A stretch of DNA of 64,000 nt, from assembly GCA_943369495.1 (NCBI GenBank), contig CALRNG020000001.1, positions 200-64,199 on the forward strand, read 5' to 3'. Shown here piece by piece: positions 2,388 through 49,678 of the stretch. The position numbers and the translations under genes were made by a program. The stretch comes from Rhizobium sp. Q54 (GTDB lineage Bacteria > Pseudomonadota > Alphaproteobacteria > Azospirillales > Azospirillaceae). The notes under the pieces were generated by a model. The model was not told the DNA's origin. It made no database searches and was given only the letters and a program-made list of their open reading frames with translations. Position 1 is the first letter of the stretch; each line of letters starts with the position of its first letter.

Positions 2388-2405
2388 ATATAAAGAGCGA
2401 TGCGG

Positions 2406-6644: not shown

Positions 6645-6896
6645 GCCCTGAAGCGAAATTCAGGAGTTAGCGAGCATATATGCATACCTATTATTAGAAT
6701 TGCTTAGGTGGCATTGATGTGGATTCTTTAAAATTAATGTAATATCGTAATGTGTAAATATGAAATCATGACAAAGAATGTATGAATACAAATGAAGTCA
6801 TGAAGAGGATATTTAAATATAACAGTCGCATTGGTCATTGAATTTGTAGTAATTAACAATTACCCTCCTGGCCGTGGGAAAGCCAAGGGGGTGATT

Positions 6897-33965: not shown

Positions 33966-33989
33966 GATATCAAAAAGCTATCTGATATC
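33966..33989 (+). repeat. 24-bp parS-like motif copy
   Basis: GATATC-AAAAA-GCTATC-T-GATATC inside inverted repeat GAACTGATATC...GATATCAGTTC (33961-33994). Confidence 0.6.
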
Positions 33990-35703
33990 AGTTCTGGACG
34001 ACCCGCCCCGCCGCCAGTTCCAGGACCCGGTCGGCGGCGCGGCGGGTCGCCTCGCGGTGGGTGACGGCCAGGATGGTCAGTTTGCCGCGCAGCCGGTCGA
34101 GCGTTTCCAGCACCAGTGCCTCCGACCCGCCATCCAGGGCCGAGGTGGCCTCATCCAGGATCAGCAGGCGGGGGCGGCGCAGCAAGGCACGGGCGATGGC
34201 GAGGCGTTGGCGTTCCCCACCGGAAACCGAATTGCCCCGGTCACCGACGATGGTATCCAGCCCCTGGGGCAGGGCGCGCACGAAGAGGGCGGCGCCGGCA
34301 TCCTCCAGCGCGGTCCAGAGGGCGGCCTCCGTCGCTTGCGGATCGGCCAGCAGCAGATTGGCCCGGATCGTGTCATGGAACAGGAACGGGTCCTGCGGCA
34401 CGACGGCCACCTGACGGCGCCAGGCGGACAGGCGCTCGGGGGTCAGGACATGTCCATCGACCGCTATCGTGCCGGCAGTCGGCAGCGTCAGTCCCGATAC
34501 CAGATCCGCGAGACTGGATTTACCCGCCCCCGATGGGCCGGTAACGGCCAGCAGGATGTTGCAGGGCAGGTCGAGGTCAATGCCCTCCAAGGCCAGGCGC
34601 CCATCGGGCATGCGCAGGCTGACGCCTTGCAGGGCAAGGTGGTGGGAAAAGGGGGGCAGGTCGGACCCGGCCGGTGGTTCCGCCCCGGCCCGCAGCCGGT
34701 CGCGCATCTGTTCATAAAGCCCCACGGCGGGCAGGGCGCTTTCCAGCTGCCGCCAGACCCGCATGCCGCCCAGTCCCCGCTGCGCCAGACGCGCGAAAGC
34801 CAGGATCACTACCAGGGCCTCGCTCAAAGGCTGGTCCAGCCACAGGGCTGCCGTCGCCACGGCCAGGGCCGCCAGCCCCGCTGCTGTCAGCATCAGGGCG
34901 GCCTGTTCATAGGCCATGATGCGGGCATGGCGGGCCTGGAGATGGCGCAGATCGGCAAAATGCTGGGACAGGACACCCTGTCGAACCTTCTCGGCCCCCA
35001 GCCCCTTGATGATGCGCAGGCCCGCCAGATCATCGCTCAGGTCGGCCATCATCGCCTGCTGCGCCCGGCCCAGGCGCACCCCGATATCAAAGCCGCTTTT
35101 CCCGATGCGCCGGATCAGCAGCAGCGCCAGCAGGGCGGCTGCCAGGGTGGCCAGGGTCAGAGGCGGTGACAGCAGCAGGGCCGCCAGCAGCAGGGTGGGC
35201 AGGGTCAGGGCCGCAATGCCGAGATTGACCAGCGCGTCATGGCACAGGCCCAGACGGTTCACCTCGATCGTCAGGATCTGCTTCACATCACTGGCGCGCA
35301 GCGTCTGGAATATCGGCCAGCAGACATGCAGCAGGGCCTTATGCAGGTCGCTGCGCAAGCCATCCACGAAGCGGTTGCGCTGGTCATTGCCGATGATGGA
35401 GCGCGCGGCGGTCACAGCGGCGGCGGCGGCGACCAGCAGCAGATAAAGCCCCAGCCCCCCCAGCAAGGGGCCGGCGGCCCGCGACCCGCCACCGCCCACC
35501 CCCACTACCTCCAGCACGGGCACCAGCAGCAGCAGCCCCGCCCCTTCGGCCAGCGTGGCGGCCAGCCCCAGGCCCAGCAGCAGTGCCCCCCGTCGCCGCC
35601 CATAGGAGGCGGCCAGCAGGGCCAGCAGGCGGCGGGCGGTGGCAGGGGCTGTCAGGGCGGGTGACGGCATGGGGGCCAGCAGGACGGTTGGGCGGGGGAT
35701 CAT
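33988..35703 (-). CDS. ABC exporter (fused TMD+NBD), putative lasso peptide transporter
   Basis: Hydrophobic N-terminal half; 'GPSGAGKS', 'VSGGERQR', 'ILDEATS'. No C39 domain; divergent from the lasso B2 gene. Confidence 0.88.
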   Translation of the reverse strand: MIPRPTVLLAPMPSPALTAPATARRLLALLAASYGRRRGALLLGLGLAATLAEGAGLLLLVPVLEVVGVGGGGSRAAGPLLGGLGLYLLLVAAAAAVTAARSIIGNDQRNRFVDGLRSDLHKALLHVCWPIFQTLRASDVKQILTIEVNRLGLCHDALVNLGIAALTLPTLLLAALLLSPPLTLATLAAALLALLLIRRIGKSGFDIGVRLGRAQQAMMADLSDDLAGLRIIKGLGAEKVRQGVLSQHFADLRHLQARHARIMAYEQAALMLTAAGLAALAVATAALWLDQPLSEALVVILAFARLAQRGLGGMRVWRQLESALPAVGLYEQMRDRLRAGAEPPAGSDLPPFSHHLALQGVSLRMPDGRLALEGIDLDLPCNILLAVTGPSGAGKSSLADLVSGLTLPTAGTIAVDGHVLTPERLSAWRRQVAVVPQDPFLFHDTIRANLLLADPQATEAALWTALEDAGAALFVRALPQGLDTIVGDRGNSVSGGERQRLAIARALLRRPRLLILDEATSALDGGSEALVLETLDRLRGKLTILAVTHREATRRAADRVLELAAGRVVQN

Positions 35704-35777: not shown

Positions 35778-36230
35778 ATGGTGCCCGTTGGAGCAGCAGG
35801 GACGGGGATCATGGTGGTCGGTCGGCTACGCAGACTGGAGGCGGCCTTGGCGCTGATACTGGCCTGGATGCTGGTCTTTCTGGTGCCGCTGCGCCTGCTG
35901 GGAACTGTGAACGCCCCTGGTGCCCGACCGGAGAGCCCTGACGATCCCCGCTTCCTGGCGCGGGCCCAGAGCGTGGCGCGGCGTGCCGACCGGGTCGCAG
36001 ACCGGCTGCCCTGGCGCAGTACCTGTCTGGTCCGGGCCGTGGCCGTCTGGCTGCTGTTGCGCCGGCGCGGCAGCCGGGGAGCGGCGATCCGGCTTGGCGT
36101 GCGCAGACAGGACGGTCTTCTGCAGGCCCATGCCTGGCTGCTGCTGCACGGCACCATCCTGACCGGCGGGGAGGAGGCGGATGGCTATGTGCCACTGGCT
36201 GACTTTTCGGTTGACCGGAAACAGTTCTAG
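35778..36230 (+). CDS. Lasso peptide leader peptidase B2 (transglutaminase-like)
   Basis: 'STCLVRAVA...IRLGV...AHAWL' Cys-His signature; alternative start 35811. Confidence 0.88.
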   Translation: MVPVGAAGTGIMVVGRLRRLEAALALILAWMLVFLVPLRLLGTVNAPGARPESPDDPRFLARAQSVARRADRVADRLPWRSTCLVRAVAVWLLLRRRGSRGAAIRLGVRRQDGLLQAHAWLLLHGTILTGGEEADGYVPLADFSVDRKQF

Positions 36231-36271: not shown

Positions 36272-36423
36272 CCAATCCGACAAAGGTCAAACCTTCGGCG
36301 GATTGGTATAATACCAGCGGCTTGAAATACTGACAGGTCAGCATTTCAAGCTTCGGCGGCATGGGCCGCCGCCGCGCCAGTCGGCGCGGATACTAACGGT
36401 CAAAATTTTTGACCGTTAGTATA
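36272..36423. repeat. Two adjacent hairpin-ended intergenic repeats
   Basis: CCAATCCG...CGGATTGGTAT hairpin, then ATACCAGCGGCTTGAAATACTGAC/GTCAGCATTTCAAGC ... ATACTAACGGTCAAAATTTTTGACCGTTAGTAT. Confidence 0.75.
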
Positions 36424-37083
36424 ATGATCTTCAGGCGCCGATCCCCGGGCGCGGTAATGGGCCAGCAGGTGAGGGCACAGGCTTTCCAGCGCTTCCTCCA
36501 GGCCGGGCGGGCGCTTCTGATCCCGGAACCGGTCGGTCAGGCCCTTGGTCCGGGCATTGCCGAAGACCACCTCCATCTCCTCCTGCAAGGCGGGTTCCGC
36601 CGCCCAGAGGCTGCCGAGCAACTCATCATAGGAGCGGCGGAACTGGAAATAATCCTCTGTGATGGGCCAGTCGAGGGCGGCCATGGTGGCCAGAATGGCG
36701 GGGTCGCGGGCCACCAGATCCTCGTAATGGATGACGGCGTCGAACCGGTCGCGCGCCAGGAACAGCCCTTCCAGAATCTGGAATTTCTCATGCATGAGGC
36801 CGCTGTAATGGCGGTAGGGCTTGGTGCGCAGGCTGGCGTAATTGTCGCGCGGGTCGCGCAGCAACAGCACGGTACGGTCGGGGCGGAACCGCTCCACATG
36901 CACCGCCAGGGGATAGGCCGTGGTGATCACGGCCTTGGCCACGAAATCCAGGGACGTCGTCACGCGCGGGGCTGCGAAATTGTTGGGAATATCGACCAGC
37001 GCCACGCAGCCTGGCCGTTGTGCCAGCACCTGGGTGAAGGCGGTGGCACCGCTGGACTGCATGCCATGGACCAGCAATCTCAT
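36400..37083 (-). CDS. Sulfotransferase-like P-loop protein
   Basis: 'HGMQSSGAT', 'LLRDPRDNYAS', 'IHYEDLV'; start overlaps the upstream stop. Confidence 0.7.
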   Translation of the reverse strand: MRLLVHGMQSSGATAFTQVLAQRPGCVALVDIPNNFAAPRVTTSLDFVAKAVITTAYPLAVHVERFRPDRTVLLLRDPRDNYASLRTKPYRHYSGLMHEKFQILEGLFLARDRFDAVIHYEDLVARDPAILATMAALDWPITEDYFQFRRSYDELLGSLWAAEPALQEEMEVVFGNARTKGLTDRFRDQKRPPGLEEALESLCPHLLAHYRARGSAPEDHYTNGQKF

Positions 37084-37874
37084 GTCGGCTCTCCGGCGCC
37101 GGTCAGCCAGTCCCTGTTGATCTCGGCGGTGATGAAGACATAGCGGCGGGTATGCGGCGTGGGCCAGCGCATCCCGACCCCGTGCAGGGCGTGGATGTTC
37201 TGCGGGAACAACACCAGCTGATTGGCGCGGTAGGGGATGCGCGCCACTTCCTCCACCGCCGTTTCCGGCAGCTGCTCGACAAAGGGTGAGGTGGCTACCA
37301 CCCCGTCCCGCCAGCGATAGAGGCACAGTTCGCCGCCCTGGCTGTCATCTTCCGGCGCGCGCAGGTAGAACAGGCCCGAGAACAGCCGGTTGGGCGTGTC
37401 CAGATGGGGACCCCGCGCGCGGGACGGTCCGTCCCGCACAGGCGTGTTGATTTCCAGCCTTGCATCCTGGCGGATCTCCAGCCCCGTGGCCGCAGGAGGC
37501 TGTGTCAGGTCGTACAGGCTGGTCGGATGGCCCGTCAGGCGACCGCCGAGCGCCGCCAGCATGGAAGGCTGCCAGTAGCCGTCGAACAGGGTCGCCACTT
37601 CCGCCAGGAAGTCCGGGCTGGTGTGGTAAGCCGCGAAGCGTTTCCAGCCGTCAGGCACGTCGTCCAGCATCGCCAGCATGCGGGCCGGCAGCACATAGCG
37701 GCGGTTGCCGCGCCCCCGGTCACTGGACAGGCCGGGGGCGATGCGACCGGGTGCCGGGAAGCCGGCGGCCAGTTCCGCATAGAACCTTGCCTCCAGTACA
37801 TCGGGAATGACGATATGGGGAAAGGGGTCGGTGCGGATATCAGCATGCGTCACATGGGCGAGCAGTGAACGCAT
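37080..37874 (-). CDS. 2OG-Fe(II) oxygenase
   Basis: 'DPFPHIVI', 'GPHLD' (HxD), 'GGEL', 'ALHGV', 'RRYVFI'. Confidence 0.82.
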   Translation of the reverse strand: MRSLLAHVTHADIRTDPFPHIVIPDVLEARFYAELAAGFPAPGRIAPGLSSDRGRGNRRYVLPARMLAMLDDVPDGWKRFAAYHTSPDFLAEVATLFDGYWQPSMLAALGGRLTGHPTSLYDLTQPPAATGLEIRQDARLEINTPVRDGPSRARGPHLDTPNRLFSGLFYLRAPEDDSQGGELCLYRWRDGVVATSPFVEQLPETAVEEVARIPYRANQLVLFPQNIHALHGVGMRWPTPHTRRYVFITAEINRDWLTGAGEPT

Positions 37875-37878
37875 GCGG

Positions 37879-39723
37879 TCATTCCCCCCGACCGGTTCCG
37901 GCCTTGCCCGCCGCCCATTCCCGCAGGGCCGCTTCCACTTCCGGTATGACATCGGACCAGTCGGCCCAACGCTTCTGCCGGAACAGGCGCATGCGTGGAT
38001 ACCAGGGGGTCGTGTCCCCCTTCTGCATCCAGCGCCAGCAGCCATCATAGCGCGACAACAGCAGCACGGGAATGTCGAGGCCGCCCGCCAGATGCGCCGT
38101 CGAGGTATCGACGCTGATCACCAGATCAAGGTGGCTGACCAGGGCAGCGGTATCGGCGAAATCCGACAGTTCCGCCGTCCAATCATGGATGGGGAAGGGC
38201 GGGTCGGCCATCTGGGCGGCACCGGCCCCTTTCTGCAGGCTGACGAAGCTGACGCCGGGAACGGTCCCCAGCGAGGCCAGTTTCTTCAGGGCGACGCTGC
38301 GTCGCCGGTCGATGGCGGCGGAAATGGGATCATGGGGGCGCGGATCGCCGGCCCAGACCAGTCCCACCTTCAGCCCCGGCAGGTCCGCCAGGCGCTGCCC
38401 CCAGACATCCTTGTCGGCGGGCGGGCAGGACAGATAGGGCGGGTCATAGAGGATGTTGTCGGGTCGCACCCCCAGCCGGTAGGGCAGCGACATCATGGAG
38501 ATGCCGCAATCCCATTCCGCCGGGTCCTCGTCCCTCGTCACCAGCCGGATGCGTGGATCGCTGAGGCCGAACAGCCGGACCAGGGGTTCGTTGGTGAGCA
38601 GACCTACCTGGGCCCCCCTGTCGGCCAGCAGGCGGACATAGCGGAAGAAATGCAGGCTGTCGCCCAGCCCCTGTTCGCTTTCCACCAGGATGCGGCGACC
38701 GGCCGGATCATCGCCGACCCAGGGGCGCAACTTGTCGATCTTGTACCATTGCAGGGTATAGTGGAAATGCTGGTCGCGCTTTTCATAGACGGCCCAGCCC
38801 CGTTCCCAATCACCCGACCGCAACAGATCACAGGCCAGCAGGAAGGCCGTGGTGACGGGATGATCCTCCCCCAGGGCCGCTTCCAGGGCCATGGTCTTCT
38901 CATAGAGCGGAAAGCTCTTGTCGAACCGGCCTTCAAAGGAATGGATGGTCGCCAGATTGGCCAGGCCGGGCACCATGTCAGGTTCCCGTTCCAGCCCCTT
39001 CTCCAGAGCCTCTACCGCCTCCACAAACCGCCCCTGCGAGCGCAGGACGGCGCCCAGGGTGCACCAGGCCGTTCCCAGTTCCGGCGCCAGTTCCGTGACG
39101 ACCCGCCGGGCCAGCGCCTCGGCCTCCTCAAACTCACCCACTGTTTCCAGGACCGACGCCAGATTGGTCATGGCGACGGGATCGTTGGGATAGAAGGCCA
39201 GTGATTGGCGCAGATTGGTGATGCCGCTGGCATAATCCCGCATGTTCGCCTGGATCAGGCCCAGGGCGCCCAGGACCTGCGGATAGGCGGCATTGATATG
39301 GGCCGCCTCCATGACATAGGGATAGGCGTCGGCATAGGCGAGGCGGGCGATCAGTCCCCGCGCCTCCTCCATCAGCAGATCCAGCAGCAGGCCGCCGGCG
39401 GAATGGGCGGGTACCTGTGCGACCACGGCCCGCAGCAGCCCTGCCGCCCGGCTCCTGTCGCCGGTATCGATCAGGGCGCGGGCCAGTTCGGCCATGGCGT
39501 TGACATGGTCTGGCCGCCGTTCGATCAACCGCTCCAGCACGGCCACCGCCTCGACCGACCGTTCCAGGTGACGCAGGGCGATGCCGTAAAGGAACAACCC
39601 ATCGTCACTACACTGACCTTCTGCATCCAGGGCCGCATACAGGGCGGCCACCCGGGGCTGGTCATCCTCACGGCAGGCCTGCTCGGCGGCCTGATGGCGG
39701 GCGGCGATATCCATGGGGGTCAT
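37879..39723 (-). CDS. TPR-repeat glycosyltransferase (GT9-like C-terminal domain)
   Basis: Many TPRs; 'EQGLGDSLHFFRY', 'VGLVWAG', 'DLVISVDTSTAHLAGGL', 'WRW', 'PWYPRMRLFRQ'. Confidence 0.9.
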   Translation of the reverse strand: MTPMDIAARHQAAEQACREDDQPRVAALYAALDAEGQCSDDGLFLYGIALRHLERSVEAVAVLERLIERRPDHVNAMAELARALIDTGDRSRAAGLLRAVVAQVPAHSAGGLLLDLLMEEARGLIARLAYADAYPYVMEAAHINAAYPQVLGALGLIQANMRDYASGITNLRQSLAFYPNDPVAMTNLASVLETVGEFEEAEALARRVVTELAPELGTAWCTLGAVLRSQGRFVEAVEALEKGLEREPDMVPGLANLATIHSFEGRFDKSFPLYEKTMALEAALGEDHPVTTAFLLACDLLRSGDWERGWAVYEKRDQHFHYTLQWYKIDKLRPWVGDDPAGRRILVESEQGLGDSLHFFRYVRLLADRGAQVGLLTNEPLVRLFGLSDPRIRLVTRDEDPAEWDCGISMMSLPYRLGVRPDNILYDPPYLSCPPADKDVWGQRLADLPGLKVGLVWAGDPRPHDPISAAIDRRRSVALKKLASLGTVPGVSFVSLQKGAGAAQMADPPFPIHDWTAELSDFADTAALVSHLDLVISVDTSTAHLAGGLDIPVLLLSRYDGCWRWMQKGDTTPWYPRMRLFRQKRWADWSDVIPEVEAALREWAAGKAGTGRGE

Positions 39724-40280
39724 TCAGGCTGTTCACGGGTGGCGCCGGGATGGCGCAGATGCAGGCGCGAGACGTCACGACCGGTTGCCACGAAGCCGAG
39801 GCGCGTGTAAAGGGCCAGGGCCCGGCCATTCAGGGGATCGACGGAAAGTGCCAGCCCCTTGCCGACCGCAGCTGCCTGCCGGATGAGATCGCCCAGCAGG
39901 GCGCTGCCGCTGCCCCGACCGCAGGCCGAGGGCAGGAACGCGATATCAACGACCCGCCAGTCGGGGCCGTCCATATCCAGATAAAGCCGACCGACAGGAT
40001 CGGTGCCGCGCAGCAGCAGCCGCCGGGCCGCGTCCGGGTAGCGGCGGCTCCAGTCCTGGCACTGGGCGTCGAACTGCTGGTCACAGAACCAGCGGCACAT
40101 GGCCTCGTCCCAGCCGGTGGCGGCCAGTTCGGCGGCGCGGGTGCTGCGGTAGAGCCGGCGCAGAAAAGGCAGATCGGCGTCCCGTTCGGGACGGACCCGC
40201 AGCCCGGGCGGACGAAGGGCAGGCCCCCTTGCGGTTGCCTGCCCTCCTTCCTTCCGGTCCATTGCGGACGATGGCGTCAT
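39720..40280 (-). CDS. GNAT family N-acetyltransferase
   Basis: 'FLRRLYRSTR', 'QQFDAQ', 'VDIAFLP..CGRGSG', 'LYTRLGF'. Confidence 0.88.
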   Translation of the reverse strand: MTPSSAMDRKEGGQATARGPALRPPGLRVRPERDADLPFLRRLYRSTRAAELAATGWDEAMCRWFCDQQFDAQCQDWSRRYPDAARRLLLRGTDPVGRLYLDMDGPDWRVVDIAFLPSACGRGSGSALLGDLIRQAAAVGKGLALSVDPLNGRALALYTRLGFVATGRDVSRLHLRHPGATREQPE

Positions 40281-40283
40281 GCG

Positions 40284-40844
40284 TCAGTTCCGGGATGGCC
40301 ACGTCCCATCAAAGCAGATGCAATAGCGCATGACCAGCATCGGGGAGCGGTTTTCATGCGCCGTATTGCCGCCAGCCACCGACAGTGCGCTCGGCGCCAT
40401 CGTACTCAGGGTCGGGCTCAGCGTCGAATTGATATACATGCCCAGCCCGTAGGCGCGGGTGCCCGGCGGCCGATACTGTGGGTTGGAAGGAACAGCGGTC
40501 GAACCGGGAGCCGTCACGCGCACCACGGAGAGCTGCGATACCATGCTGTGGTCATGGGACGGGATCTGAGCGATGTTCAGGGTCACTATGGCCTGACCCA
40601 GGGTCGCGGCCACCGGGTAGGGACCACCGGCGGCGGTGCTCGTGCCCGAATAGCCCAGAACCACCCGCCCGTTCAGGTTGGGAACGGCGAAGGTGGTCTT
40701 ACCGTCGCCGCCATATGTGATGCCAAGGATGGCGGCCAGCGCCTGATACTGTTGGATGGAGTGGAGAGACCCATCGCATGTCAGCCAGCCGGCGGGCGTG
40801 AACATATACGGGAAGGCCCGGATTTCACCAATGAACGCGTCCAT
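40284..40844 (-). CDS. Phage tail-collar domain protein (microcystin-dependent-protein-like), paralog 3
   Basis: 'FIGEIRAF', 'GWLTCDG', 'TFAVPNLNGR', 'IPSHDH', 'HENRSP...YCI'. Confidence 0.9.
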   Translation of the reverse strand: MDAFIGEIRAFPYMFTPAGWLTCDGSLHSIQQYQALAAILGITYGGDGKTTFAVPNLNGRVVLGYSGTSTAAGGPYPVAATLGQAIVTLNIAQIPSHDHSMVSQLSVVRVTAPGSTAVPSNPQYRPPGTRAYGLGMYINSTLSPTLSTMAPSALSVAGGNTAHENRSPMLVMRYCICFDGTWPSRN

Positions 40845-40860
40845 TTATGCCTCCCTTTGC

Positions 40861-41394
40861 TCACGCCGCCGGATATAAGCCGTTCAGCGCGATGATGTAA
40901 CGCATGGCCATGGACGGCATCATGTTCATATGCGCCTGTCCGCCGCCGTTCGGCAGGATGACCCCCGCCGCCATGGTCACCGAGACGTTGGTGGCGTTGG
41001 CGGGAGTGTAGAGGTTGAAGCTGTCGCTGGGATCGGCCAGGACGGCATTGATGGGGGACGTGCTGGTGGCCGCGTTGGTCGTCGCCATCTCCGGATGGCT
41101 ATGCAGCGGCAGCTGCGCCTCGGTCAGGGTGACGGCGGTGACGCCACCGGCCTGGCCCAGTTTATAGGGGGAAATACCGGTCCCGCCGCTGGTGCCATAG
41201 CCGATGGGCAGGCGGCCCCGCAGGTCCGGTACCGCGAAGGTCGTTGAGCCGTCCCCGCCATAGACGGTACCCAGCAACGCGAACAGCTCCTGATGGGAGG
41301 CAATATTCAGGATGCTTCCGTCACATTCCTGCCAGTCGGCAGGAACATAAGTGCCGGCGAACAGTCGGATTTCGCCAATATAATAATCGCTCAT
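40861..41394 (-). CDS. Phage tail-collar domain protein, paralog 2
   Basis: 'YIGEIRLFAG', 'WQECDG', 'TFAVPDLRGR', 'LPLHSH', 'HMNMMP...YII'. Confidence 0.9.
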   Translation of the reverse strand: MSDYYIGEIRLFAGTYVPADWQECDGSILNIASHQELFALLGTVYGGDGSTTFAVPDLRGRLPIGYGTSGGTGISPYKLGQAGGVTAVTLTEAQLPLHSHPEMATTNAATSTSPINAVLADPSDSFNLYTPANATNVSVTMAAGVILPNGGGQAHMNMMPSMAMRYIIALNGLYPAA

Positions 41395-41417
41395 GACATG
41401 TCTCCCTTGCCAGGCGG

Positions 41418-41981
41418 TCAGTTGCGGGCCGGATAAATGCCGTTAGTGGCGATGCAATAGCTGAGGGCCAGGAACGGCTGCCGGTTCTCATGCCCGCCAC
41501 TGCCGCCGGCATTGCCGACGATCGACGTGCTCAGCGTCGTCATGGGCGACGCCGCGGGGCCATATAGGGCCGGCGGTGCTGGCTGCGGTGCCGGTACCTG
41601 CGACGGGATGGACGTGATGGCGAAATAACTGTTGGCCGGGTTCGCCGATGCATTGGCTGTGAGGGCCTGCTGATTGGCGGCGACAACCGTGTGGGTATGG
41701 GCCGGCATCTGGGCAACCGACAGGGTCACCGTTTCGGCGCCCGCCGTGTTGCCGACAGTGGGCGGCATGCCCAAGGCGCTGCCATTCATGCCGGCGATGG
41801 CCCGGCCATTGAGGTTCGGCAGATTGAAATTTGTGCCGTTGCCTCCGAACTGGATCCCCAGCAGGGAGTACAGGGCCGTATTCTGCTGGATCACCAGCGA
41901 CTGACCATTGCAGGCCACCCATCCATGGGGGATGTTCTGGTACGGGAAAAGACGGATTTCACCAATGAAATAGTCGGACAC
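41418..41981 (-). CDS. Phage tail-collar domain protein, paralog 1
   Basis: GTG start; 'FIGEIRLF', 'GWVACNG', 'FNLPNLNGR', 'MPAHTH', 'HENRQP...YCI'. Confidence 0.9.
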   Translation of the reverse strand: MSDYFIGEIRLFPYQNIPHGWVACNGQSLVIQQNTALYSLLGIQFGGNGTNFNLPNLNGRAIAGMNGSALGMPPTVGNTAGAETVTLSVAQMPAHTHTVVAANQQALTANASANPANSYFAITSIPSQVPAPQPAPPALYGPAASPMTTLSTSIVGNAGGSGGHENRQPFLALSYCIATNGIYPARN

Positions 41982-42386
41982 GGTTGCCTCCCTATTAGGC
42001 ATAGCCTGACAACCAACCTTGCGACGAACAGGGTTGTTCCGTACAAGGAAGATTGTTGCCAGGAAGTCATATATCCACCCCTGGATGCAAGCGGTATGAA
42101 GATTTAAGGTTGTTTTTCCTGGAAGGGACATAATACAATAATCATTACATGATCGCTGACCGTCCGTTCATAAACGGTATATGAACAACCATATATCTGG
42201 CCGCTCTGCCGGCTCCCGATGCCCCTGCGGCCCTGTCTCCCCGAGTCTGGTATGGCTGAACCGGAAGGGACGCCACCCTTGTCAGGGACGGGTGTATCCT
42301 TTATGATCGCAATCAGTAGAAGAGTGGCTGGGGTCTGCTTCTTCACCCTGCCCCCGCTGTCGTGCAGACACGTACAGGATATGGAT

Positions 42387-42548
42387 ATGAACGCTCCCAA
42401 GACGGTCGGAACCTCCGATCATGCCGCCGGCCAGGATGCGGATCGTCTTCCCTGGACGGCACCCGTCCTGGGCGTCTATGATGCCGCCCGCCTGACGCTG
42501 GGTACCAGCGACCAGACAAATGATAGCGGTCTGAACACCCATTCCTGA
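42387..42548 (+). CDS. Lasso peptide precursor (53 aa; predicted core GTSDQTNDSGLNTHS)
   Basis: Leader 'WTAPVL' ([Y/W]xxPxL), Thr at -2, core Gly1 and Asp8; 12 bp upstream of the cyclase; AGGA RBS. Alternative ATG at 42381. Confidence 0.88.
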   Translation: MNAPKTVGTSDHAAGQDADRLPWTAPVLGVYDAARLTLGTSDQTNDSGLNTHS

Positions 42549-42560
42549 GCCGTTCCTCCC

Positions 42561-44459
42561 ATGTTTCTGGCAGCAACGGGCCCAGTGACGCGTGGTCTCA
42601 GCCACCATGTTCCATCCGGCCTGAGAGCTGTTGGCCTTCACCAAGATGCCGACTGCGGCATCGTCGGTTTTGACCATGAGCCCTCGTCCCCCGGACGAGG
42701 GCGCCCTCAGCCGCGTTCCCTTCCTCGCAGCCCCTCCGGGGCGGTAACCCTGATCAGCGGGGCGCTCTACAATCTTCCCGATCTGGCGTCCGCCCTGGGG
42801 ATGGACCCGTCTTCGGCTCCCGCATTGCTGGTCGATGCCGTCATCGACCGTTGGGGGACGGAGGGACTTGCCCGCCTCAATGGCGATTACGCCCTGGTCC
42901 GCTGGTCGCCGCATAACCGCTCGCTGCTGCTGGCGGCCTGCCCCATGGGTTGGAACAGCCTTTATCATGCGGCCACGCCCGACGGTATCCTGGTGGCCAG
43001 CCGCCCCAGCTGGCTGCTGGCCTTTCCCGAAGTCGATGCCGAACCGGACATCGATACGCTGGCCCTGCGGTTGGCCAAGATGGAGAACCGGGTCGGCGAC
43101 CGCACCCCCTGGCGCCATATAAGGCGCCTGCAGCCGGGTCAGTATCTGGAATGGCGGGACGGGTCCACGCGCATCGCCCCCTTCTGGTCACCGGTGCCGC
43201 GCCGCACCCTGCGCTTGCCCCGCGATGGGGATTATGTGGAGGCCGCGCGCGAGCATCTGGACCGCGCCGTCGCCGCCCGCTGTCCCACGGGGACGCCCAT
43301 CCTGTGCCTGCTGTCGGCGGGGCTGGATTCCCCCGGCATCGTTGCCACGGCGGCCCAATGCCACGACGCGCCCATCCATACGCTGACGGTCCGCGCCGAC
43401 CCAACGGCTCCCCTGCTGGAACCCGGTGCCTGGCACTTCGGGGATGAATGGGAACGCCTGCAGCCCTTCCGGGACCGCTACCCATCCCTGACGGCGCATG
43501 TGGCCGATGCCTGGCAGCCCGATCTGGCCATGGAATTTCCAGGCGGGATGTTGCAAAGCCGTGACTGGCCCTTCAAGAGCCCGTATCAGATCGCCTGGGC
43601 CACGCTTCCCTTGGAACGGGCGGTCCGCGAGCAGGGCATCCAGGTTGTCATAAGCGGTGATGCGGGTAATGTCACGCTGAGCTATACGGGCAGCCATGTG
43701 GCCGCCGACCAGATGCTGGCGGGGCGCTGGTTGCCGGCCTGGCGCAACCTCATTCCCTATCGGGATGATTGGACCGGACGTCCCCGTGCGCTCTGGAACC
43801 AGGGATTGCTTCCCTTGCTATCTCCCGCCATACGCCGGCAGGTGCGCCGTCTGCGTGGCAAGACTGATTACTGGTGGCAGGAATGGAGCAGCATCCAGCC
43901 AGAGGTGGCGCAACGCCTGCAACTGGACGACCATGACCGGCCTGGGATCCGGACGGGTTCCCCTGACCTGGACAGGCATATCCATATCCTTGACCGCCAC
44001 CGTCATAACACCGCCCAATATGCCCATTTCCTGCAAGGGCAGAGCTGGTCCTGGCGCGACCCCTATACCGACCTGGCCCTGGTGGAATTCTGCCTGTCGC
44101 TGCCGCGCGATCAGTTCCGCCGGGACGGGGTCAACCGCCTGCTGGCCCGCCGGACCCTGGCCGACCGCGTGCCGGACACGATCCTGAATGAACGCCGTAT
44201 CGGGCTGCAACATGCCGACTGGTATGGCTGGATGAGCCGGCGGCGCGGCTGGATGGCGGCCGAGATCGACCGGATCGAACGCTCGCCCCTGGCCTGTTCC
44301 ATCCTGGACACGCGCCATATGCGCGCCATCCTGGACGCCTGGCCCGCCACGCCGGCAGACGCCGGGCGCTTCCCCACCTCCCACCGGCTGCGCAAGGGGC
44401 TGGGTGAGGCCTTGCGGGTGGGGCAGTTCATCTTGATGCAGGAAGGCCGCAATGAGTGA
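42561..44459 (+). CDS. Lasso peptide cyclase (asparagine synthetase-like, C protein)
   Basis: 'LNGDYALVRW', ATP motif 'LSAGLDS', 'SGDAG', 'DPYTDLALVEFCLSLP'; lacks the N-terminal Cys of true AsnB. Confidence 0.88.
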   Translation: MFLAATGPVTRGLSHHVPSGLRAVGLHQDADCGIVGFDHEPSSPGRGRPQPRSLPRSPSGAVTLISGALYNLPDLASALGMDPSSAPALLVDAVIDRWGTEGLARLNGDYALVRWSPHNRSLLLAACPMGWNSLYHAATPDGILVASRPSWLLAFPEVDAEPDIDTLALRLAKMENRVGDRTPWRHIRRLQPGQYLEWRDGSTRIAPFWSPVPRRTLRLPRDGDYVEAAREHLDRAVAARCPTGTPILCLLSAGLDSPGIVATAAQCHDAPIHTLTVRADPTAPLLEPGAWHFGDEWERLQPFRDRYPSLTAHVADAWQPDLAMEFPGGMLQSRDWPFKSPYQIAWATLPLERAVREQGIQVVISGDAGNVTLSYTGSHVAADQMLAGRWLPAWRNLIPYRDDWTGRPRALWNQGLLPLLSPAIRRQVRRLRGKTDYWWQEWSSIQPEVAQRLQLDDHDRPGIRTGSPDLDRHIHILDRHRHNTAQYAHFLQGQSWSWRDPYTDLALVEFCLSLPRDQFRRDGVNRLLARRTLADRVPDTILNERRIGLQHADWYGWMSRRRGWMAAEIDRIERSPLACSILDTRHMRAILDAWPATPADAGRFPTSHRLRKGLGEALRVGQFILMQEGRNE

Positions 44460-45417
44460 GCCCGATCTGCCGCTGATGCCGGTAACGGCCGCACCCTCGG
44501 CGGAGGGGGGGCGCTTCCTGCTGCGCCCCGTGGGGCCGGCGGATTTCCTATTCGGCCTGCATAATCGTCCGCCGGGCGCCAATCACCCCCCCCTCTTGCT
44601 GCAAGAGGTTGCCATCCGCGCCCATGTGCCGGTGGGCCCCATCCTGCCGCCGATCCTGTCCATCTGGCACCTGACGCGCTGCGGTTCCACCCTGACGGCC
44701 CGCATGCTGTCCTGCATCGAGGCGTTGCAGGTGACGGACGAGCCGGGGGCGCTGGTCGATATCTGCGGTGCCTTCTGGGGCCTGGTGCCGGCCGCCGACC
44801 GGCTGCCGGCGCTGGATATGACCCTGCGGTCGCTGGGGCAGCGGCTGCGGCCGGGGGCGCGCCATCTGGTGGTGAAACAATCGCTGCGCAGCGGGCAGGA
44901 ACTGGACCTGTTCACGCGGCTGCATCCCGACATGCACCGGCTGCTGATCATCCGCGATCCCCTGGAAATCCTGGTGTCGAACCTGCGCAAGCCGCCCGGC
45001 TGGCTGAAATTGCGTAACGTGGTCTGGTCGCCGCTGCTGTCGGGCGTGGGGATGGCTACGCAGCGCGGCCTCAGCGACGCGGAATTCATCGCCCGCTGCC
45101 TGGGCCGCGCCTTCACCGCCATGGCCCGGATGGTGGAAAAGGACCCCGCTGCCTGGCTGATCCTGGATTACACGGAGCTGCCGGGGGCCGTGACGACCCG
45201 GTTGCTGCCGCGCCTGGGCATCACGCCCGGCCCGGACGAACGGGCAGCCATGGAGGAGGCCACGCGTTTGGAGGCCTGGAACCGCAAGGGCCGCCAGCCC
45301 TTTCAGGACGACCGCGCTGACAAGCAGGCCGCCGCCACCCCGGAAATGCACGCCCTGTGCGACCGGTTCCTGCGGGAACCCTGGCAGCGGCTGGCGCTGT
45401 TGCGGCAGCCGTCATGA
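44452..45417 (+). CDS. Sulfotransferase-like protein
   Basis: 'WHLTRCGSTL', 'IIRDPLEILVS', 'LDYTELP', 'FQDDRADKQ'; overlaps the cyclase stop. Confidence 0.7.
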   Translation: MSEPDLPLMPVTAAPSAEGGRFLLRPVGPADFLFGLHNRPPGANHPPLLLQEVAIRAHVPVGPILPPILSIWHLTRCGSTLTARMLSCIEALQVTDEPGALVDICGAFWGLVPAADRLPALDMTLRSLGQRLRPGARHLVVKQSLRSGQELDLFTRLHPDMHRLLIIRDPLEILVSNLRKPPGWLKLRNVVWSPLLSGVGMATQRGLSDAEFIARCLGRAFTAMARMVEKDPAAWLILDYTELPGAVTTRLLPRLGITPGPDERAAMEEATRLEAWNRKGRQPFQDDRADKQAAATPEMHALCDRFLREPWQRLALLRQPS

Positions 45418-46320
45418 AGGATGGCCGGTGACCAGGGCCTCCACGGCGGTGGCCAGGGCCGGCAGGTCGGCCAGATCATCGGTCCGTTCCAGCCGGAAGA
45501 CAGGCGTGGCGCGTGCCAGCGTCACCGCCCAGTCCAGGGCGGTACGGCCCTGGTCCAGCGCACGGCTGAATTCGGGCCGGTAGAGACAGCGCAGCAGCAG
45601 GGCGGCCGCCGCGTGCGGATCGGCCCGTTCCAGGTGCTGTTCCATCCCCCGTGACAGGACCAGCACCAGGCCCAAGGGCATGGGGGCGGGATGGAACCGG
45701 TCCGGCATCGGGATGATGTATTTCTCCAGCCCGTCGCGCACGCGCCGACCAGGGTCCACCGCGTCGCCGGCCAGCGCCGCGGTCCCTGCCCATAGTTTCA
45801 TGGCCGGAAAGCCGGGATGCACTGCCCGTGTGCCGGGGTCGATCACGGCCTGATCATCGCTGACCAGCTCATGGCCCCGCGCGATCAGGGTACGGGCCAG
45901 GGTCGATTTGCCCGCCCCGCTGTCACCGGCCAGGGCCACGGCCATCGGACCTATCGCCACCACGCAGGCATGCATCGGTGGCCGCCCGCGCTGGCACATC
46001 AGCCAGCCGAGCGGCGGCCCGCAGAGCAGGGCATGCAGTTCGGCATCACTGATCTCCGGCGGCAGGTCCGCCGTGATTTCCCGACCCTCCCGGATCAGGA
46101 AACGCGCCCCCCGCACAGCCTGATGCAGGCCGGTGCCATCGGCATAGATAGACAGGCGCCGTGCCTGACGGGTTGGGCTTCCCGCCGGAACCGCCACCGG
46201 GGCGAAGCGCAGCACAACATCCACGGGACGCGCCGGATCGGGTTCCGGCCACTGGAAAGGCAAGGGGCACGGGCTGGACAGGGTCAGCCCGTAAATCCGG
46301 TACCGGTGCTCGCCGGTCAT
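45412..46320 (-). CDS. HPr-kinase-like kinase (lasso peptide kinase type)
   Basis: 'YRIYGL', 'MHAC', Walker A 'GDSGAGKST', 'VSDD', 'PGFPAMKLW'. Confidence 0.88.
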   Translation of the reverse strand: MTGEHRYRIYGLTLSSPCPLPFQWPEPDPARPVDVVLRFAPVAVPAGSPTRQARRLSIYADGTGLHQAVRGARFLIREGREITADLPPEISDAELHALLCGPPLGWLMCQRGRPPMHACVVAIGPMAVALAGDSGAGKSTLARTLIARGHELVSDDQAVIDPGTRAVHPGFPAMKLWAGTAALAGDAVDPGRRVRDGLEKYIIPMPDRFHPAPMPLGLVLVLSRGMEQHLERADPHAAAALLLRCLYRPEFSRALDQGRTALDWAVTLARATPVFRLERTDDLADLPALATAVEALVTGHPS

Positions 46321-46432
46321 CTCGCCTCTTTCCACCCCGGTCAGGCCACCCTTGAGCCATGACATTTACAGCGCCGCTCTGGCTCTGCCATAAATGCCGG
46401 TCTGTTGCCATGGTGAAAAGCAGGCCGCCTTC

Positions 46433-46717
46433 ATGAGCTTCCTCCCCGATACGATCTTCATCCGCGCGTCCGGTCCGCTGACCACCGAGGTGGATGGCGA
46501 ACTGGTGATGCTGGATGTCGAGAGCGGCAGCTATTTCAACCTGGACCGTATCGGTACCGCCATCTGGGGGCTGCTGGCAAATCCCGTGCATTTCGAGGAT
46601 CTGTGCCAGGACCTGCACGCCCGCTATGACGCGCCGCTGGAGACGATCCGTGCGGATGTCGCGGCCCTCTTGTCCCGGATGCTGGAGCATAAGCTGGTGA
46701 GGACGGAGATGCCGTGA
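46433..46717 (+). CDS. PqqD-family RiPP recognition element (lasso B1)
   Basis: 'EVDGELVMLDVESGSYFNLDRIGTAIWGLL...LHARYD...DVAALL'. Confidence 0.92.
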   Translation: MSFLPDTIFIRASGPLTTEVDGELVMLDVESGSYFNLDRIGTAIWGLLANPVHFEDLCQDLHARYDAPLETIRADVAALLSRMLEHKLVRTEMP

Positions 46718-47649
46718 CCGATGCCGCTTCCCCGGATATGGCTGCCCTTGCCCGGCAGGCGGCCTTCCTGCTGCTCCAGGGTCAGGCCGCTCAGGCAGCC
46801 GGGCTGTGCGAGCGCATACGGGACATTGATCCCAATCTGGAGCGGTTCGGCGCCTTTATCGATCTGCTGACCTGGGCTCGACCGCGCGAGCGGCTCTATC
46901 CTCTCATTCGTGATCTGGTGGATGCGGGTTTCGCCAATCCCCGCAGTTTCGATCTGCTGGCCGCCGCCGCCATCTGGGCCGGCGACAGCAAGGCCGCCCG
47001 GGTCCTGACCGATCCCGACCGTTTCCTGTCCATCCTCCCCCTGCACGGGCCCGATGATCCCGATCTGGCGCTGCTGACCCGTGAACTGGGCAGCGGGCTG
47101 GACCATTACGACCGGCCCGGCGACCGGTCCATACGCATGGGATGGCGGCGTAACCATCTGGAGACGGCGGACAGTCCTGTGCTGCGCCGTATGTTCGACC
47201 GGTTATGGCGGGCAGCATTGGATTATGTCGGGCGGCTGCCAGTCGATCCGGACAACCCGTTTCTGCGCTCCAGGCCCGCCGGCCTCAGCCTGCGGGCCTG
47301 GAGTGTGGTGTCGGGCGCCGATACCCATCATCTTTCCCATCTGCATGCCACCAGCTGGGTCAACGGCGTCTATTATGTGGCTGTGCCGCCCGTGACAGGC
47401 GACGAGGTGGGCAAGCCTGGCTGGCTGCGTGTCGGGCCGGCGGCGGGCCGGGGTTTCAATGCCGGCAATGGCTGGGACGAGCGCTGGGTCCGCCCGGAGC
47501 CCGGCCTCGTCGTCCTGATGCCAAGCCATTTCAGCCATGAGACCGTGCCCCTGGGCTGTGACGGGCCGCGGATATGTGTGGCCTTTGAACTATACGCCGC
47601 ACCGGTGGAAACGGCTGATCAGCGGCTGCCGCCGGCCAGCAGTCGATAG
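46714..47649 (+). CDS. Putative 2OG-Fe(II) oxygenase with helical N-terminus
   Basis: 'HLSHLH..SWVNGVYYV', 'PEPGLVVLMPSHFSHETVP', 'RICVAF'; GTGA coupling with B1. Confidence 0.78.
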   Translation: MTDAASPDMAALARQAAFLLLQGQAAQAAGLCERIRDIDPNLERFGAFIDLLTWARPRERLYPLIRDLVDAGFANPRSFDLLAAAAIWAGDSKAARVLTDPDRFLSILPLHGPDDPDLALLTRELGSGLDHYDRPGDRSIRMGWRRNHLETADSPVLRRMFDRLWRAALDYVGRLPVDPDNPFLRSRPAGLSLRAWSVVSGADTHHLSHLHATSWVNGVYYVAVPPVTGDEVGKPGWLRVGPAAGRGFNAGNGWDERWVRPEPGLVVLMPSHFSHETVPLGCDGPRICVAFELYAAPVETADQRLPPASSR

Positions 47650-48170
47650 ACCGAAGCCCGCCCGATGCCCAGATATCGGGCGATGGCGGCCCCCCCCATG
47701 CCCTCGGCCTTCAGCCGCCGCACGGCCTCGGCATCGATGCGCGGTTTGCGGCCTTTATAGACGCCTCTAGCCTTGGCGGCCTTGATCCCCTCCATCTGGC
47801 GTTCCCGGCGCAGGTTCGTCTCGAACTCCGCAAAGACGCCCAGCATGTCGAGGAAGGCCTTGCCGGCGGCGGTGCTGGTATCGATGGGCTGTTCGGTGGC
47901 GCGCAGGTCCACACCCTTGGCCCGCAGCTCCGCCACGATATCCTGAAGGTCCTTGATGGACCGCGCCAGCCGGTCGATGCGGGTGACCAGCAACGTGTCG
48001 CCCGGGCGCAGGAATTCCAGCAGCAGGGCCAGCTCCGTGCGGCCCTTGCGGCTGGACCCGCTGGCCTTCTCGGCACGCACGACCGCACAGCCGGCCCGGG
48101 TCAGCGTCTCCACCTGGATTGTCACATCCTGGTCGGTGGTGGAGGCGCGGGCATATCCGTACAAAGCCAT
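47619..48170 (-). CDS. Serine resolvase/invertase
   Basis: 'YGYARAST', 'EKASG', 'TRIDRLARS', C-terminal HTH 'IARYLGIGRASVYR'. Confidence 0.95.
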   Translation of the reverse strand: MALYGYARASTTDQDVTIQVETLTRAGCAVVRAEKASGSSRKGRTELALLLEFLRPGDTLLVTRIDRLARSIKDLQDIVAELRAKGVDLRATEQPIDTSTAAGKAFLDMLGVFAEFETNLRRERQMEGIKAAKARGVYKGRKPRIDAEAVRRLKAEGMGGAAIARYLGIGRASVYRLLAGGSR

Positions 48171-49439: not shown

Positions 49440-49678
49440 GGCTTTTTCTCCCCAACACGGATACCCGGCACCCCAGGCCATCTATGGCATGGACCCACGG
49501 GTAAGATCAGCGCCCTGATGCCGGGCCCGGCGCACAGCCTTGTATGACGCGAATTTTATACGACTTTAAGGGTAAAAACGGTAGCTATCAACAACATGAA
49601 GCGTGGGGTGTGCCGATGGTCCGGCGCATGGATGCTGTGACCCCCGTCTTCTTTTCCTTATCCTCAGGTTTACCGGCG

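What the first reader, a model, noticed from the sequence alone, without database searches (positions are those of the whole stretch)
42387..42548. Short lasso precursor with a 15-residue core ending in His-Ser
Seen: MNAPKTVGTSDHAAGQDADRLPWTAPVLGVYDAARLTL|GTSDQTNDSGLNTHS, hidden at the 3' end of a longer ORF call. Known: [Y/W]xxPxL and Thr(-2) are lasso leader hallmarks, and PadeK-type kinases phosphorylate the C-terminal Ser. Inference: Gly1-Asp8 macrolactam with a 7-residue tail and phospho-Ser15. The core is very polar, has no Phe/Tyr/Trp, and offers only Leu11/Asn12/His14 as plugs, so C-terminal modification might help lock the thread.
Basis: partly seen in the sequence, partly recalled or inferred. 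Interest (0 to 1): 0.8.

Follow-up and report, generated by a model that had tools for sequence, protein, structure and literature searches.

The report
Lasso peptide, possibly sulfated and phosphorylated
This tiny conserved gene encodes a precursor predicted to become a 15-residue knotted (lasso) peptide, and a predicted sulfate-adding enzyme stays beside it in relatives more consistently than the kinase does, so the product may be a sulfated lasso peptide, a kind I found no report of.

Summary
The sequence is as described. It is the precursor of a complete kinase-type lasso cluster: cyclase, kinase, B1, B2 (6 kb away) and an ABC exporter. Across 14 orthologues, Thr(-2), Gly1, the ring acid (position 8 in 13, 9 in one), Thr13 and the terminal Ser never change, so the predicted Gly1-Asp8 ring is well supported. 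The 'no plug' point is weak. Position 14 is His, Lys or Arg in 14 of 14, and solved 15-residue lassos with an 8-residue ring exist, one with no aromatic residue. The idea that a terminal modification locks the thread is already published (PMC6993621). Both sit in 7 of 7 orthologous loci, against 4 of 7 for the kinase. Kinase-type clusters also often adjoin a fixed trio of tail-collar genes (9 of 21 against 0 of 20), which does not co-evolve with the cyclase. Verdict: a real precursor of a known class with an uncharacterised tailoring set; no chemistry is shown.

The parts
42387..42548 (+). Precursor gene A (53 aa)
42387..42500 (+). Leader, 38 aa, with W(-16)xxP(-13)xL(-11) and Thr(-2)
   Evidence: Thr(-2) in 14 of 14 orthologues
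42501..42545 (+). Core GTSDQTNDSGLNTHS; predicted Gly1-Asp8 macrolactam, His14 as likely lower stopper, Ser15 as likely modified residue
   Evidence: conservation; the chemistry is inferred
42561..44459 (+). Lasso cyclase C (632 aa; AsnB-like, SAGLDS at 252, no N-terminal Cys)
   Evidence: PF00733 E 7e-26; best NCBIfam match NF033535, 107 bits against a cut-off of 525; motif counts
44452..45417 (+). Sulfotransferase-fold protein ST2 (321 aa), overlapping the cyclase stop by 8 nt; Arg76, Glu97, Lys142, Arg168, Ser176
45412..46365 (-). HprK-like kinase K (His132, GDSGAGKS at 147-154, Asp170-Asp171)
   Evidence: PF07475; motif matches the spacing in PMC10368454
46394..46717 (+). B1, PqqD-type leader-binding protein
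   Evidence: PF05402 E 9e-18; the only match in the genome; NF033536 67.9 bits against a cut-off of 80
46714..47649 (+). 2OG-Fe(II) oxygenase OG2, overlapping the B1 stop by 4 nt
   Evidence: PF13759; HxH...H motif; present in 7 of 7 orthologous loci
35778..36230 (+). B2 leader peptidase (Cys83, His118)
   Evidence: PF13471 77.5 bits, the only match over cut-off in the genome; Cys and His in 34 of 34
33988..35703 (-). ABC exporter, candidate D
   Evidence: PF00005 + PF00664; close homologues in related clusters
40284..42131 (-). Three tail-collar-domain genes (ORF calls 41418-42131, 40861-41394, 40284-40844), transcribed away from A
   Evidence: PF07484; T4 short-tail-fibre match; fixed order in 28 loci
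39720..40280 (-). GNAT acetyltransferase of the collar cassette
   Evidence: PF00583
37879..39723 (-). TPR protein with a weak glycosyltransferase-9 match
37080..38048 (-). Second 2OG-Fe(II) oxygenase-like protein (OG1)
   Evidence: PF13640; paired with the next gene in L040, L073, L082, L116, L128
36400..37326 (-). Unassigned protein (ST1); a sulfotransferase-like N-terminal motif seen by eye only
   Evidence: no Pfam or NCBIfam match; not tested further

Best explanation
The gene encodes a conserved lasso-type precursor whose 15-residue core is predicted to be cut from its leader, closed into a Gly1-Asp8 ring with the tail likely threaded and held by His14, and likely made anionic at its Asn-Thr-His-Ser end by a kinase and possibly by a sulfotransferase and an oxygenase. 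Steps: B1 would bind the WTAPVL leader. K would phosphorylate Ser15 on the linear precursor, as known kinases of this kind do. B2, encoded 6 kb away, would cut after Leu(-1). C would adenylate Asp8 and join it to Gly1. The ABC transporter would export the product. ST2 would move sulfate from PAPS to a tail hydroxyl: Ser15 itself, Thr13, a hydroxyl made by OG2, or the phosphate. Shown here: the sequence, its conservation, the gene set, catalytic motifs, the predicted fold and the gene linkage. Inferred: every reaction. My odds: ring formation 0.9; stays threaded 0.65; phospho-Ser15 0.75; ST2 acts on the peptide 0.45; OG2 does 0.35. Most likely role (about 0.3, inferred from context only): an exported, charged cell-surface or signalling peptide rather than an antibiotic.
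For: Complete A/B1/B2/C/K/ABC set, with single B1, B2 and A in the genome. Invariant Thr(-2), Gly1, ring acid, Thr13 and terminal Ser in 14 distinct orthologous cores; ring+6 is His 12, Lys 1, Arg 1. Cyclase SxGxDS: G, D, S in 55 of 55; B2 Cys and His in 34 of 34; the kinase motif matches BsfK residue for residue. Proteobacterial kinases of such clusters phosphorylate the C-terminal Ser of the linear precursor (PMC8498205 passages). ST2: 69 of 80 homologues match PF13469; the model (pLDDT 92) has tyrosylprotein sulfotransferases as its top five PDB matches, E 2e-6 to 7e-6; Arg/Glu/Lys align with the TPST catalytic residues and are kept in 18 of 18 lasso-linked copies; the window's ST2 falls in a 15-row branch that is wholly lasso-linked. 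ST2 and OG2 are in 7 of 7 orthologous loci, K in 4 of 7. The genome has an APS kinase. Size precedent: PDB 2N5C and 7JS6 are 15-mers with an 8-residue ring.
Against: No reaction, product or transcript is shown. The cyclase scores far below the NCBIfam lasso-cyclase cut-off (107 against 525), B1 scores below its cut-off, and no leader model matches. The cluster lies on a plasmid-like contig full of glycosyl-, methyl- and sulfotransferase genes, so ST2 and OG2 could serve glycans. 10 of 28 ST2 homologues had no cyclase nearby (two on short contigs). The core has no Tyr, the acceptor of the enzymes ST2 most resembles, and the fold match is loose (TM 0.45-0.55). The three kinase-less loci are close kin, so they count as one loss, and those genomes have other, distant kinase homologues that could act in trans. 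Unmodified pseudomycoidin was isolated unthreaded, and His is a modest stopper. The genome is 71% complete, so other copies may be missing.
Confidence: 0.65

Rival explanations
1. Plain phosphorylated lasso peptide. ST2 and OG2 are passengers that act on the surface glycans encoded around the cluster, and the product is an ordinary proteobacterial relative of paeninodin.
For: Glycan-modifying neighbourhood. Only 11 of 52 cyclase-plus-kinase loci carry ST2 and 9 of 52 carry OG2. 10 of 28 ST2 homologues are not near a cyclase. No Tyr in the core.
Against: ST2 overlaps the cyclase stop and OG2 overlaps the B1 stop. The A-C-ST2-B1-OG2 block is intact in T. mobilis pTM1 among unrelated housekeeping genes. 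The ST2 branch holding this protein is lasso-linked in 15 of 15.
Confidence: 0.35
2. The ring closes around the tail, but the tail slips out to a branched-cyclic form unless a bulky group is added at Ser15.
For: Shown in part for pseudomycoidin (PMC6993621 section 9). In the wider family 11 of 38 cores have no F/Y/W/R/K/H/L/I/M/Q/E from ring+4 on, against 0 of 47 solved lassos (counted by eye in Table S5 of PMC12214591).
Against: This lineage keeps a large basic residue at ring+6 in 14 of 14 and an aliphatic one at ring+3 in 13 of 14. The ring is 8 residues, smaller than pseudomycoidin's 9. Three orthologous loci have lost the cognate kinase without changing the Thr-His-Ser end.
Confidence: 0.25
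3. Sulfate is the primary mark on the terminal Ser. ST2 is the dedicated terminal-Ser enzyme and the kinase is optional or competes for the same hydroxyl.
For: 7 ST2-bearing cyclase loci have no kinase nearby, yet their precursors end in Ser (L165, L166, L189-L193). The ST2-linked cores mostly lack Tyr, and a Ser at or next to the C-terminus is the hydroxyl they have in common.
Against: Those 7 loci come from two lineages (six are close kin), and all the genomes checked have kinase homologues elsewhere. 11 loci keep both enzymes.
Confidence: 0.2
4. The peptide is the ligand or decoration of a heterotrimer made by the three tail-collar proteins, the two forming one surface system.
For: Collar genes lie near 9 of 21 kinase-bearing and 0 of 20 kinase-less B2 loci (Fisher p 0.0013), and near 7 of 22 loci in a separate kinase-anchored sample. 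The link is spread over the cyclase tree (19-20 changes). The three paralogues keep their order in 84 of 84 comparisons. Precursor genes sit directly before collar trios with no enzymes in L103 and L110.
Against: Collar and GNAT distances do not track the cyclase (r 0.01, 0.18, 0.09, -0.11), whereas K, B1 and B2 do (0.43-0.48). 4 of the 7 orthologous loci have no collar genes in the stretch held (L036, L165, L190, L191). Collar trios also flank giant adhesin-like genes with no lasso genes (6 of 20).
Confidence: 0.2
5. A chance or silent ORF beside an asparagine synthetase.
For: No curated model matches the peptide. RefSeq calls the T. mobilis cyclase an asparagine synthetase B family protein, and the gene table held lists no precursor.
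Against: Leave-out profile E 1e-5. 14 conserved orthologues. Changes fall mostly on third codon positions (11 of 21 and 22 of 40). The enzyme lacks the N-terminal Cys of glutamine-dependent AsnB.
Confidence: 0.03

Closest known systems
Kinase-containing lasso clusters: paeninodin (PadeK), ThcoK and proteobacterial SyanK of Sphingobium yanoikuyae (Zhu et al. 2016; seen only through review passages in PMC8498205)
   Same: Split B1/B2, AsnB-like cyclase, HprK-like kinase, ABC exporter, precursor ending in Ser.
   Different: Shorter core (15 aa, 8-residue ring). Scattered gene order with B2 6 kb away. A coupled sulfotransferase and 2OG oxygenase, and an adjoining collar/GNAT cassette. The review notes putative sulfotransferase genes only in some Firmicutes clusters, uncharacterised.
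Pseudomycoidin (psmCAKB1B2ND, Bacillus pseudomycoides; PMC6993621, passages and section 9 read)
   Same: Kinase, terminal Ser, weak steric lock; source of the idea that a terminal modification locks the thread.
   Different: 9-residue ring and a longer core. Has the nucleotidyltransferase PsmN, for which no match was seen here. This lineage keeps His/Lys/Arg at position 14.
Solved 15-residue lassos with an 8-residue ring: chaxapeptin (PDB 2N5C) and PDB 7JS6 (Table S5 of PMC12214591)
   Same: Same length, ring size and 7-residue post-ring segment; 7JS6 has no aromatic residue.
   Different: Different sequences, richer in large side chains. No terminal Ser.
Canucin A / CanE (2OG-Fe(II) lasso hydroxylase; review passages, PMC8498205)
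   Same: A 2OG-Fe(II) oxygenase in a lasso cluster acting near the C-terminus of the linear precursor.
   Different: CanE hydroxylates a terminal Asp, which is absent here. Homology of OG2 to CanE was not tested.
Tyrosylprotein sulfotransferases TPST1/TPST2 (PDB 3ap3, 5wrj, 8w5z; PMC10951654 passages)
   Same: Sulfotransferase fold, 5'-PSB and 3'-PB motifs, and the Arg/Glu/Lys catalytic set in ST2.
   Different: Eukaryotic Tyr-specific enzymes at 16-18% identity. The peptide here has no Tyr in its core, so the acceptor would be another hydroxyl.

Membership tests
Lasso peptide cluster (class II) | Leader with [Y/W]xxPxL and Thr(-2) | tested here: met
   W(-16), P(-13), L(-11); Thr(-2) in 14 of 14. 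No NCBIfam leader model matches.
Lasso peptide cluster (class II) | Small N-terminal core residue and Asp/Glu at position 7-9, with at least 5 residues after it | tested here: met
   Gly1 in 14 of 14; acid at 8 in 13 and at 9 in one; 7 residues follow; criteria from PMC12214591.
Lasso peptide cluster (class II) | RRE (B1) and cysteine peptidase (B2) with catalytic Cys and His | tested here: met
   PF05402 and PF13471 over cut-off; Cys83 and His118 in 34 of 34. The third catalytic residue was not pinned down.
Lasso peptide cluster (class II) | AsnB-like cyclase with an intact ATP-binding SxGxDS motif | tested here: met
   PF00733; SAGLDS at 252. The best NCBIfam model is the lasso cyclase, but at 107 of 525 bits.
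Lasso peptide cluster (class II) | Macrolactam actually formed and tail threaded | not testable with these tools
   Needs MS, carboxypeptidase digestion and NMR.
Kinase-type (paeninodin/SyanK) lasso peptides | HprK-like kinase with H-G-G-GKS-DD motif | tested here: met
   His132, Gly147, Gly150, Gly152, Lys153, Ser154, Asp170, Asp171; same spacing as BsfK.
Kinase-type (paeninodin/SyanK) lasso peptides | C-terminal Ser in the precursor | tested here: met
   14 of 14 orthologues.
Kinase-type (paeninodin/SyanK) lasso peptides | Phosphorylation of that Ser | not testable with these tools
   Other kinases of this family modify Ser3 instead (PMC10368454, PMC13381572). This core has Ser3, which is not conserved across orthologues.
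Pseudomycoidin-type phosphoglycosylated lasso | Nucleotidyltransferase gene in the cluster | tested here: not met
   None among the 24 ORFs scanned between 30 and 55 kb.
Glutamine-dependent asparagine synthetase B | N-terminal nucleophilic Cys | tested here: not met
   The protein begins MFLAATG; TIGR01536 106 of 267 bits.
PAPS-dependent sulfotransferase (ST2) | Sulfotransferase fold with 5'-PSB and 3'-PB motifs and catalytic Arg/Glu/Lys | tested here: met
   The window protein itself scores below the Pfam cut-off (18.9 of 27 bits).
PAPS-dependent sulfotransferase (ST2) | The peptide is its substrate | not testable with these tools
   Only gene linkage is available.

The most novel reading that the evidence does not exclude
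This is the first sulfated lasso peptide: a lasso-dedicated branch of TPST-like sulfotransferases puts O-sulfate on the terminal Ser (or on Thr13, an oxygenase-made hydroxyl, or the phosphate) of an Asn-Thr-His-Ser tail, interchangeably with the kinase. It belongs to a widespread class of short, polar, often plug-less Ser-ending cores that depend on anionic capping and work with a phage-fibre-tip-like collar heterotrimer at the cell surface.
Probability: 0.3. Interest if true: 0.75.

Novelty: new variant of a known kind. Interest (0 to 1): 0.45.

Why it matters
The peptide alone is one more predicted member of a known class, and a 15-mer with an 8-residue ring is precedented. Its value is as a small, complete and testable cluster for two open points. 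First, sulfotransferase genes in lasso clusters were noted in 2016 but I found no characterised sulfated lasso peptide (searches; not in the modification list of a 2026 review). A bacterial Ser/Thr peptide O-sulfotransferase would be new enzymology and a useful tool. Second, why these clusters put charge on the last Ser is unknown. Natural variants here (kinase present or lost; His, Lys or Arg at position 14) give a direct test of 'built-in plug' against 'terminal lock'. The repeated pairing with a collar-protein trio is not in the papers searched and hints at a non-antibiotic surface role.

Tried and rejected
Complex prediction of the three collar proteins with precursor residues 18-53 gave no verdict (score 0.00, controls not folded); it is not evidence either way. 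B1-leader binding was not modelled. Expression: one RNA run held 5% of the words. A single contig of a relative (about 90% alike) spans 38066-44507 across both divergent operons, which cannot show transcription. The ESM Atlas gave no answer for ST2 or a collar protein. The two Zhu 2016 papers were not read: the JBC paper is not held and the FEBS Lett paper was not looked up. Their cluster figures may already show collar or sulfotransferase genes in Proteobacteria. The genome-contig scan found only one locus, L055, a duplicate of a locus already held and left out of counts. L117 duplicates L116 and was counted once in the orthologue and tree counts. A ring through Asp4 was rejected (too small; the residue is Asn 6, Asp 5, Glu, Ser, Val). 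The 109-aa upstream start was rejected (orthologues align from Met 42387). Co-evolution of the collar trio with the lasso enzymes was tested and not found. The promoter scan found a 10/12 sigma-70-like site at 42279-42307, with 2 sites found against 0.5 expected, too weak to use. A phmmer search of ST2 alone found no PDB match; a profile was needed. Look-ups of earlier scan notes by place and by sequence, and the first by words, returned nothing.

Full report
Observation. window:42387-42548 (+) reads MNAPKTVGTSDHAAGQDADRLPWTAPVLGVYDAARLTL|GTSDQTNDSGLNTHS*, at the 3' end of a 109-aa ORF call. The ATG at 42387 has AGGA 7 nt upstream and aligns with Met1 of ten other sequences. A profile of 27 related precursors, with this one and its two close orthologues left out, finds it at E 1e-5 among 64,603 closed frame ends of the genome; the next best is E 1.0. 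Over the last 36 codons, differences from two orthologues fall mostly on third positions (11 of 21 and 22 of 40).

Anatomy. Twelve bases after the precursor comes an AsnB-like protein without an N-terminal Cys (PF00733; best NCBIfam model is the lasso cyclase NF033535, at 107 of 525 bits). Next is a 321-aa protein overlapping its stop (ST2), a convergent HprK-like kinase, a PqqD-type B1 and a 2OG-Fe(II) oxygenase overlapping B1. B2 is not adjacent. It lies at 35778-36230, beyond a divergent operon of three tail-collar genes, a GNAT, a TPR protein, a second oxygenase and an unassigned gene, and next to an ABC exporter. B1, B2 and A each have one match in the genome, which is 71% complete. Catalytic motifs are intact: SxGxDS in the cyclase (G, D, S in 55 of 55 kinase-linked cyclases), Cys and His in B2 (34 of 34), and the kinase motif with the same spacing as BsfK (PMC10368454 passages). 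The contig looks like a plasmid (RepA_C, ParA-like, CcdB, AbiEii, resolvase) rich in glycan-modifying genes. The closest named record is Niveispirillum sp. KHB5.9 (cyclase 83% identical).

What orthologues say about the core. I gathered 14 distinct orthologous precursors. P0002 is the window's own sequence and P0008 equals L116, so neither was counted twice. Thr(-2), Gly1, Thr at ring+5 and the last Ser are invariant. The ring acid is at 8 in 13 (Asp 12, Glu 1) and at 9 in one; Asp4 is not kept. Ring+3 is Leu/Ile/Val in 13, ring+4 is Asn in 13, and ring+6 is His 12, Lys 1, Arg 1. This supports the Gly1-Asp8 ring. It also points to His14 as a selected large residue, either the lower stopper or a charge partner of the modified Ser. 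Six of 14 cores contain an aromatic residue, so its absence here is not a trait of the lineage. In Table S5 of PMC12214591 (supplement read; my counts by eye) 8 of 47 solved lassos lack Phe/Tyr/Trp after the ring. 15-mers with an 8-residue ring include chaxapeptin (2N5C, named) and the aromatic-free 7JS6. Size and polarity are therefore unusual but precedented. The lock-by-modification idea is in print for pseudomycoidin, whose unmodified form was isolated unthreaded (PMC6993621 passages and section 9).

The wider family. Around related cyclases I found 38 distinct cores of 13-21 residues, 73% Gly/Ser/Thr/Ala/Asn/Asp, of which 36 end in Ser. That count is biased, because the profile seeds were required to end in Ser. 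In a held-out kinase-anchored sample 17 of 18 ended in Ser, 7 of them from one genus, against 796 of 8,584 frame ends in general; the profile still favours a terminal Ser. Eleven of the 38 have no large residue from ring+4 on, against 0 of 47 solved lassos. The family is already in prediction sets: one close relative of other loci is in the 4,749-row LassoPred table, but no precursor of this lineage matched three motifs searched.

ST2 has no Pfam hit at E 0.001 on its own, but 69 of 80 homologues match Sulfotransfer_3 at E 0.01. The profile hits sulfotransferases in PDB, and the model (pLDDT 92) has tyrosylprotein sulfotransferases as its five best matches, with loose overlap (TM 0.45-0.55). 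Its Arg76, Glu97 and Lys142 align with the TPST motif residues that PMC10951654 names as catalytic (passages), and all 18 lasso-linked copies keep them. The window's ST2 lies in a 15-row branch in which every row is beside a lasso cyclase; 10 of 28 homologues in all are not. Of the seven distinct orthologous loci with context (window, L035, L036, L116, L165, L190, L191), all have ST2, B1 and OG2, and four have the kinase. The three without it include T. mobilis pTM1 and are close kin, so this is one loss, and distant kinase homologues exist elsewhere in those genomes. Four more ST2-bearing cyclase loci lack a nearby kinase yet have Ser-ending precursors (L166, L189, L192, L193). The genome encodes an APS kinase. 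Against a peptide role: the glycan-rich neighbourhood, and no Tyr in the core. Sulfate and phosphate differ by 0.0095 Da.

The collar link. One search gave 43 B2 matches in 401 alphaproteobacterial genomes. I dropped one weak match and merged two that share a locus, leaving 41 loci including the window. Collar genes lie within about 10 kb of 9 of 21 kinase-bearing and 0 of 20 kinase-less loci (Fisher p 0.0013). Kin are not independent, and 10 of the 20 kinase-less loci are cut short by contig ends. A separate sample anchored on the kinase gave 7 of 22, including three from other classes. Of 20 collar sites I picked by hand because no B2 was near, 3 still had cyclase, kinase, B1 and precursor, 2 had only a precursor gene, 2 had B1 plus GNAT, 6 flanked giant Thr/Ser-rich ORFs and 7 had none of these. 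The link is scattered over the cyclase tree (19-20 changes, FastTree, 88 rows). The three paralogues keep their order in 84 of 84 best-hit comparisons. But collar and GNAT distances do not track the cyclase, while K, B1 and B2 do, and four of seven orthologous loci have no collar genes in the stretch held. These are two modules that keep meeting; a shared function is inferred, not shown.

Mechanism. Most likely B1 presents the leader, K phosphorylates Ser15 on the linear precursor (by analogy with PadeK and SyanK; PMC8498205 passages), B2 cleaves, C closes Gly1-Asp8 around the tail with His14 below the ring, and the ABC transporter exports it. ST2 and OG2 probably add sulfate and a hydroxyl within the conserved Asn-Thr-His-Ser end, at lower odds (0.45 and 0.35). 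All reactions are inferred.

Comparison and novelty. It meets every sequence-level test for a kinase-type lasso cluster and fails the tests for pseudomycoidin-type clusters and for asparagine synthetase B. Proteobacterial kinase clusters and putative sulfotransferase genes in Firmicutes clusters are noted in PMC8498205. I found no characterised sulfated lasso peptide (search listings; PMC13352647 section 15 parts 1-2 read; PMC13381572 passages). I found no paper holding both 'lasso peptide' and 'tail collar' (listings only). The library lacks most subscription papers, and I could not read the Zhu 2016 papers or their figures. Other AI notes of this scan report the same sulfotransferase and collar pairings in other genomes. 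I saw them after my own analysis; they are not independent evidence, and they show the pattern is common rather than special to this window. Verdict: real, correctly read in outline, a new variant of a known kind; interest 0.45.

Noticed in passing
L103:8909-10958 and L110:8973-10932: A lasso-type precursor gene (identical core in both, ending in Ser) lies directly upstream of a collar trio on the same strand, with no cyclase, kinase, B1 or B2 within about 9 kb; L110 has a second precursor at 12813-13070.
   Followed up: partly
L102:7001-11062 and L108:8963-13072: B1 (PqqD) plus GNAT plus a collar trio with no cyclase or precursor found nearby; these collars group with those of the full lasso locus L096.
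   Followed up: partly
L051, L052, L083, L089, L094, L096 and others: Predicted cores whose post-ring segment is only 5-8 small residues (for example L083 and L089). No solved lasso in the table read has so little bulk; these are better tests of the terminal-lock idea than this window's peptide.
   Followed up: partly
window 1179-4212, 29352-30281, 33563-33955, 47619-48170: ParA-like, AbiEii, RepA_C, CcdB and resolvase genes: the contig looks like a plasmid carrying the lasso cluster inside a surface-glycan island.
   Followed up: no
window 6831-14762 (+): 2,643-aa protein with RTX calcium-binding repeats and a weak glycoside hydrolase 43 match, a possible surface protein.
   Followed up: no
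window 48363-49481 (-): 372-aa Ala/Gln/Thr/Val-rich protein with no family match; a 71% identical copy sits beside the resolvase at the edge of another lasso-collar locus, L053.
   Followed up: no
window 36400-38048 (-): The OG1 + ST1 gene pair recurs beside lasso-collar loci L040, L073, L082, L116, L128; ST1 has no family match.
   Followed up: partly
G045, G089, G343, L079: Some genomes hold many kinase homologues (12, 8 and 9 matches) and several lasso loci; L079 packs three cyclases, three kinases and three precursors into 20 kb.
   Followed up: no
H16 (NZ_CP039640.1:131720-132484) and L165:11854-11967: An ST2 homologue is annotated as 'aspartyl/asparaginyl beta-hydroxylase', and the T. 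mobilis pTM1 precursor is absent from the gene table held; both would hide such clusters from annotation-based mining.
   Followed up: no
L200 and L202: Bacillota kinase-type lasso clusters (Paenibacillus, Butyrivibrio plasmid records) also lie among glycosyltransferase or sugar-nucleotide genes, but with no collar genes in the stretch held.
   Followed up: partly
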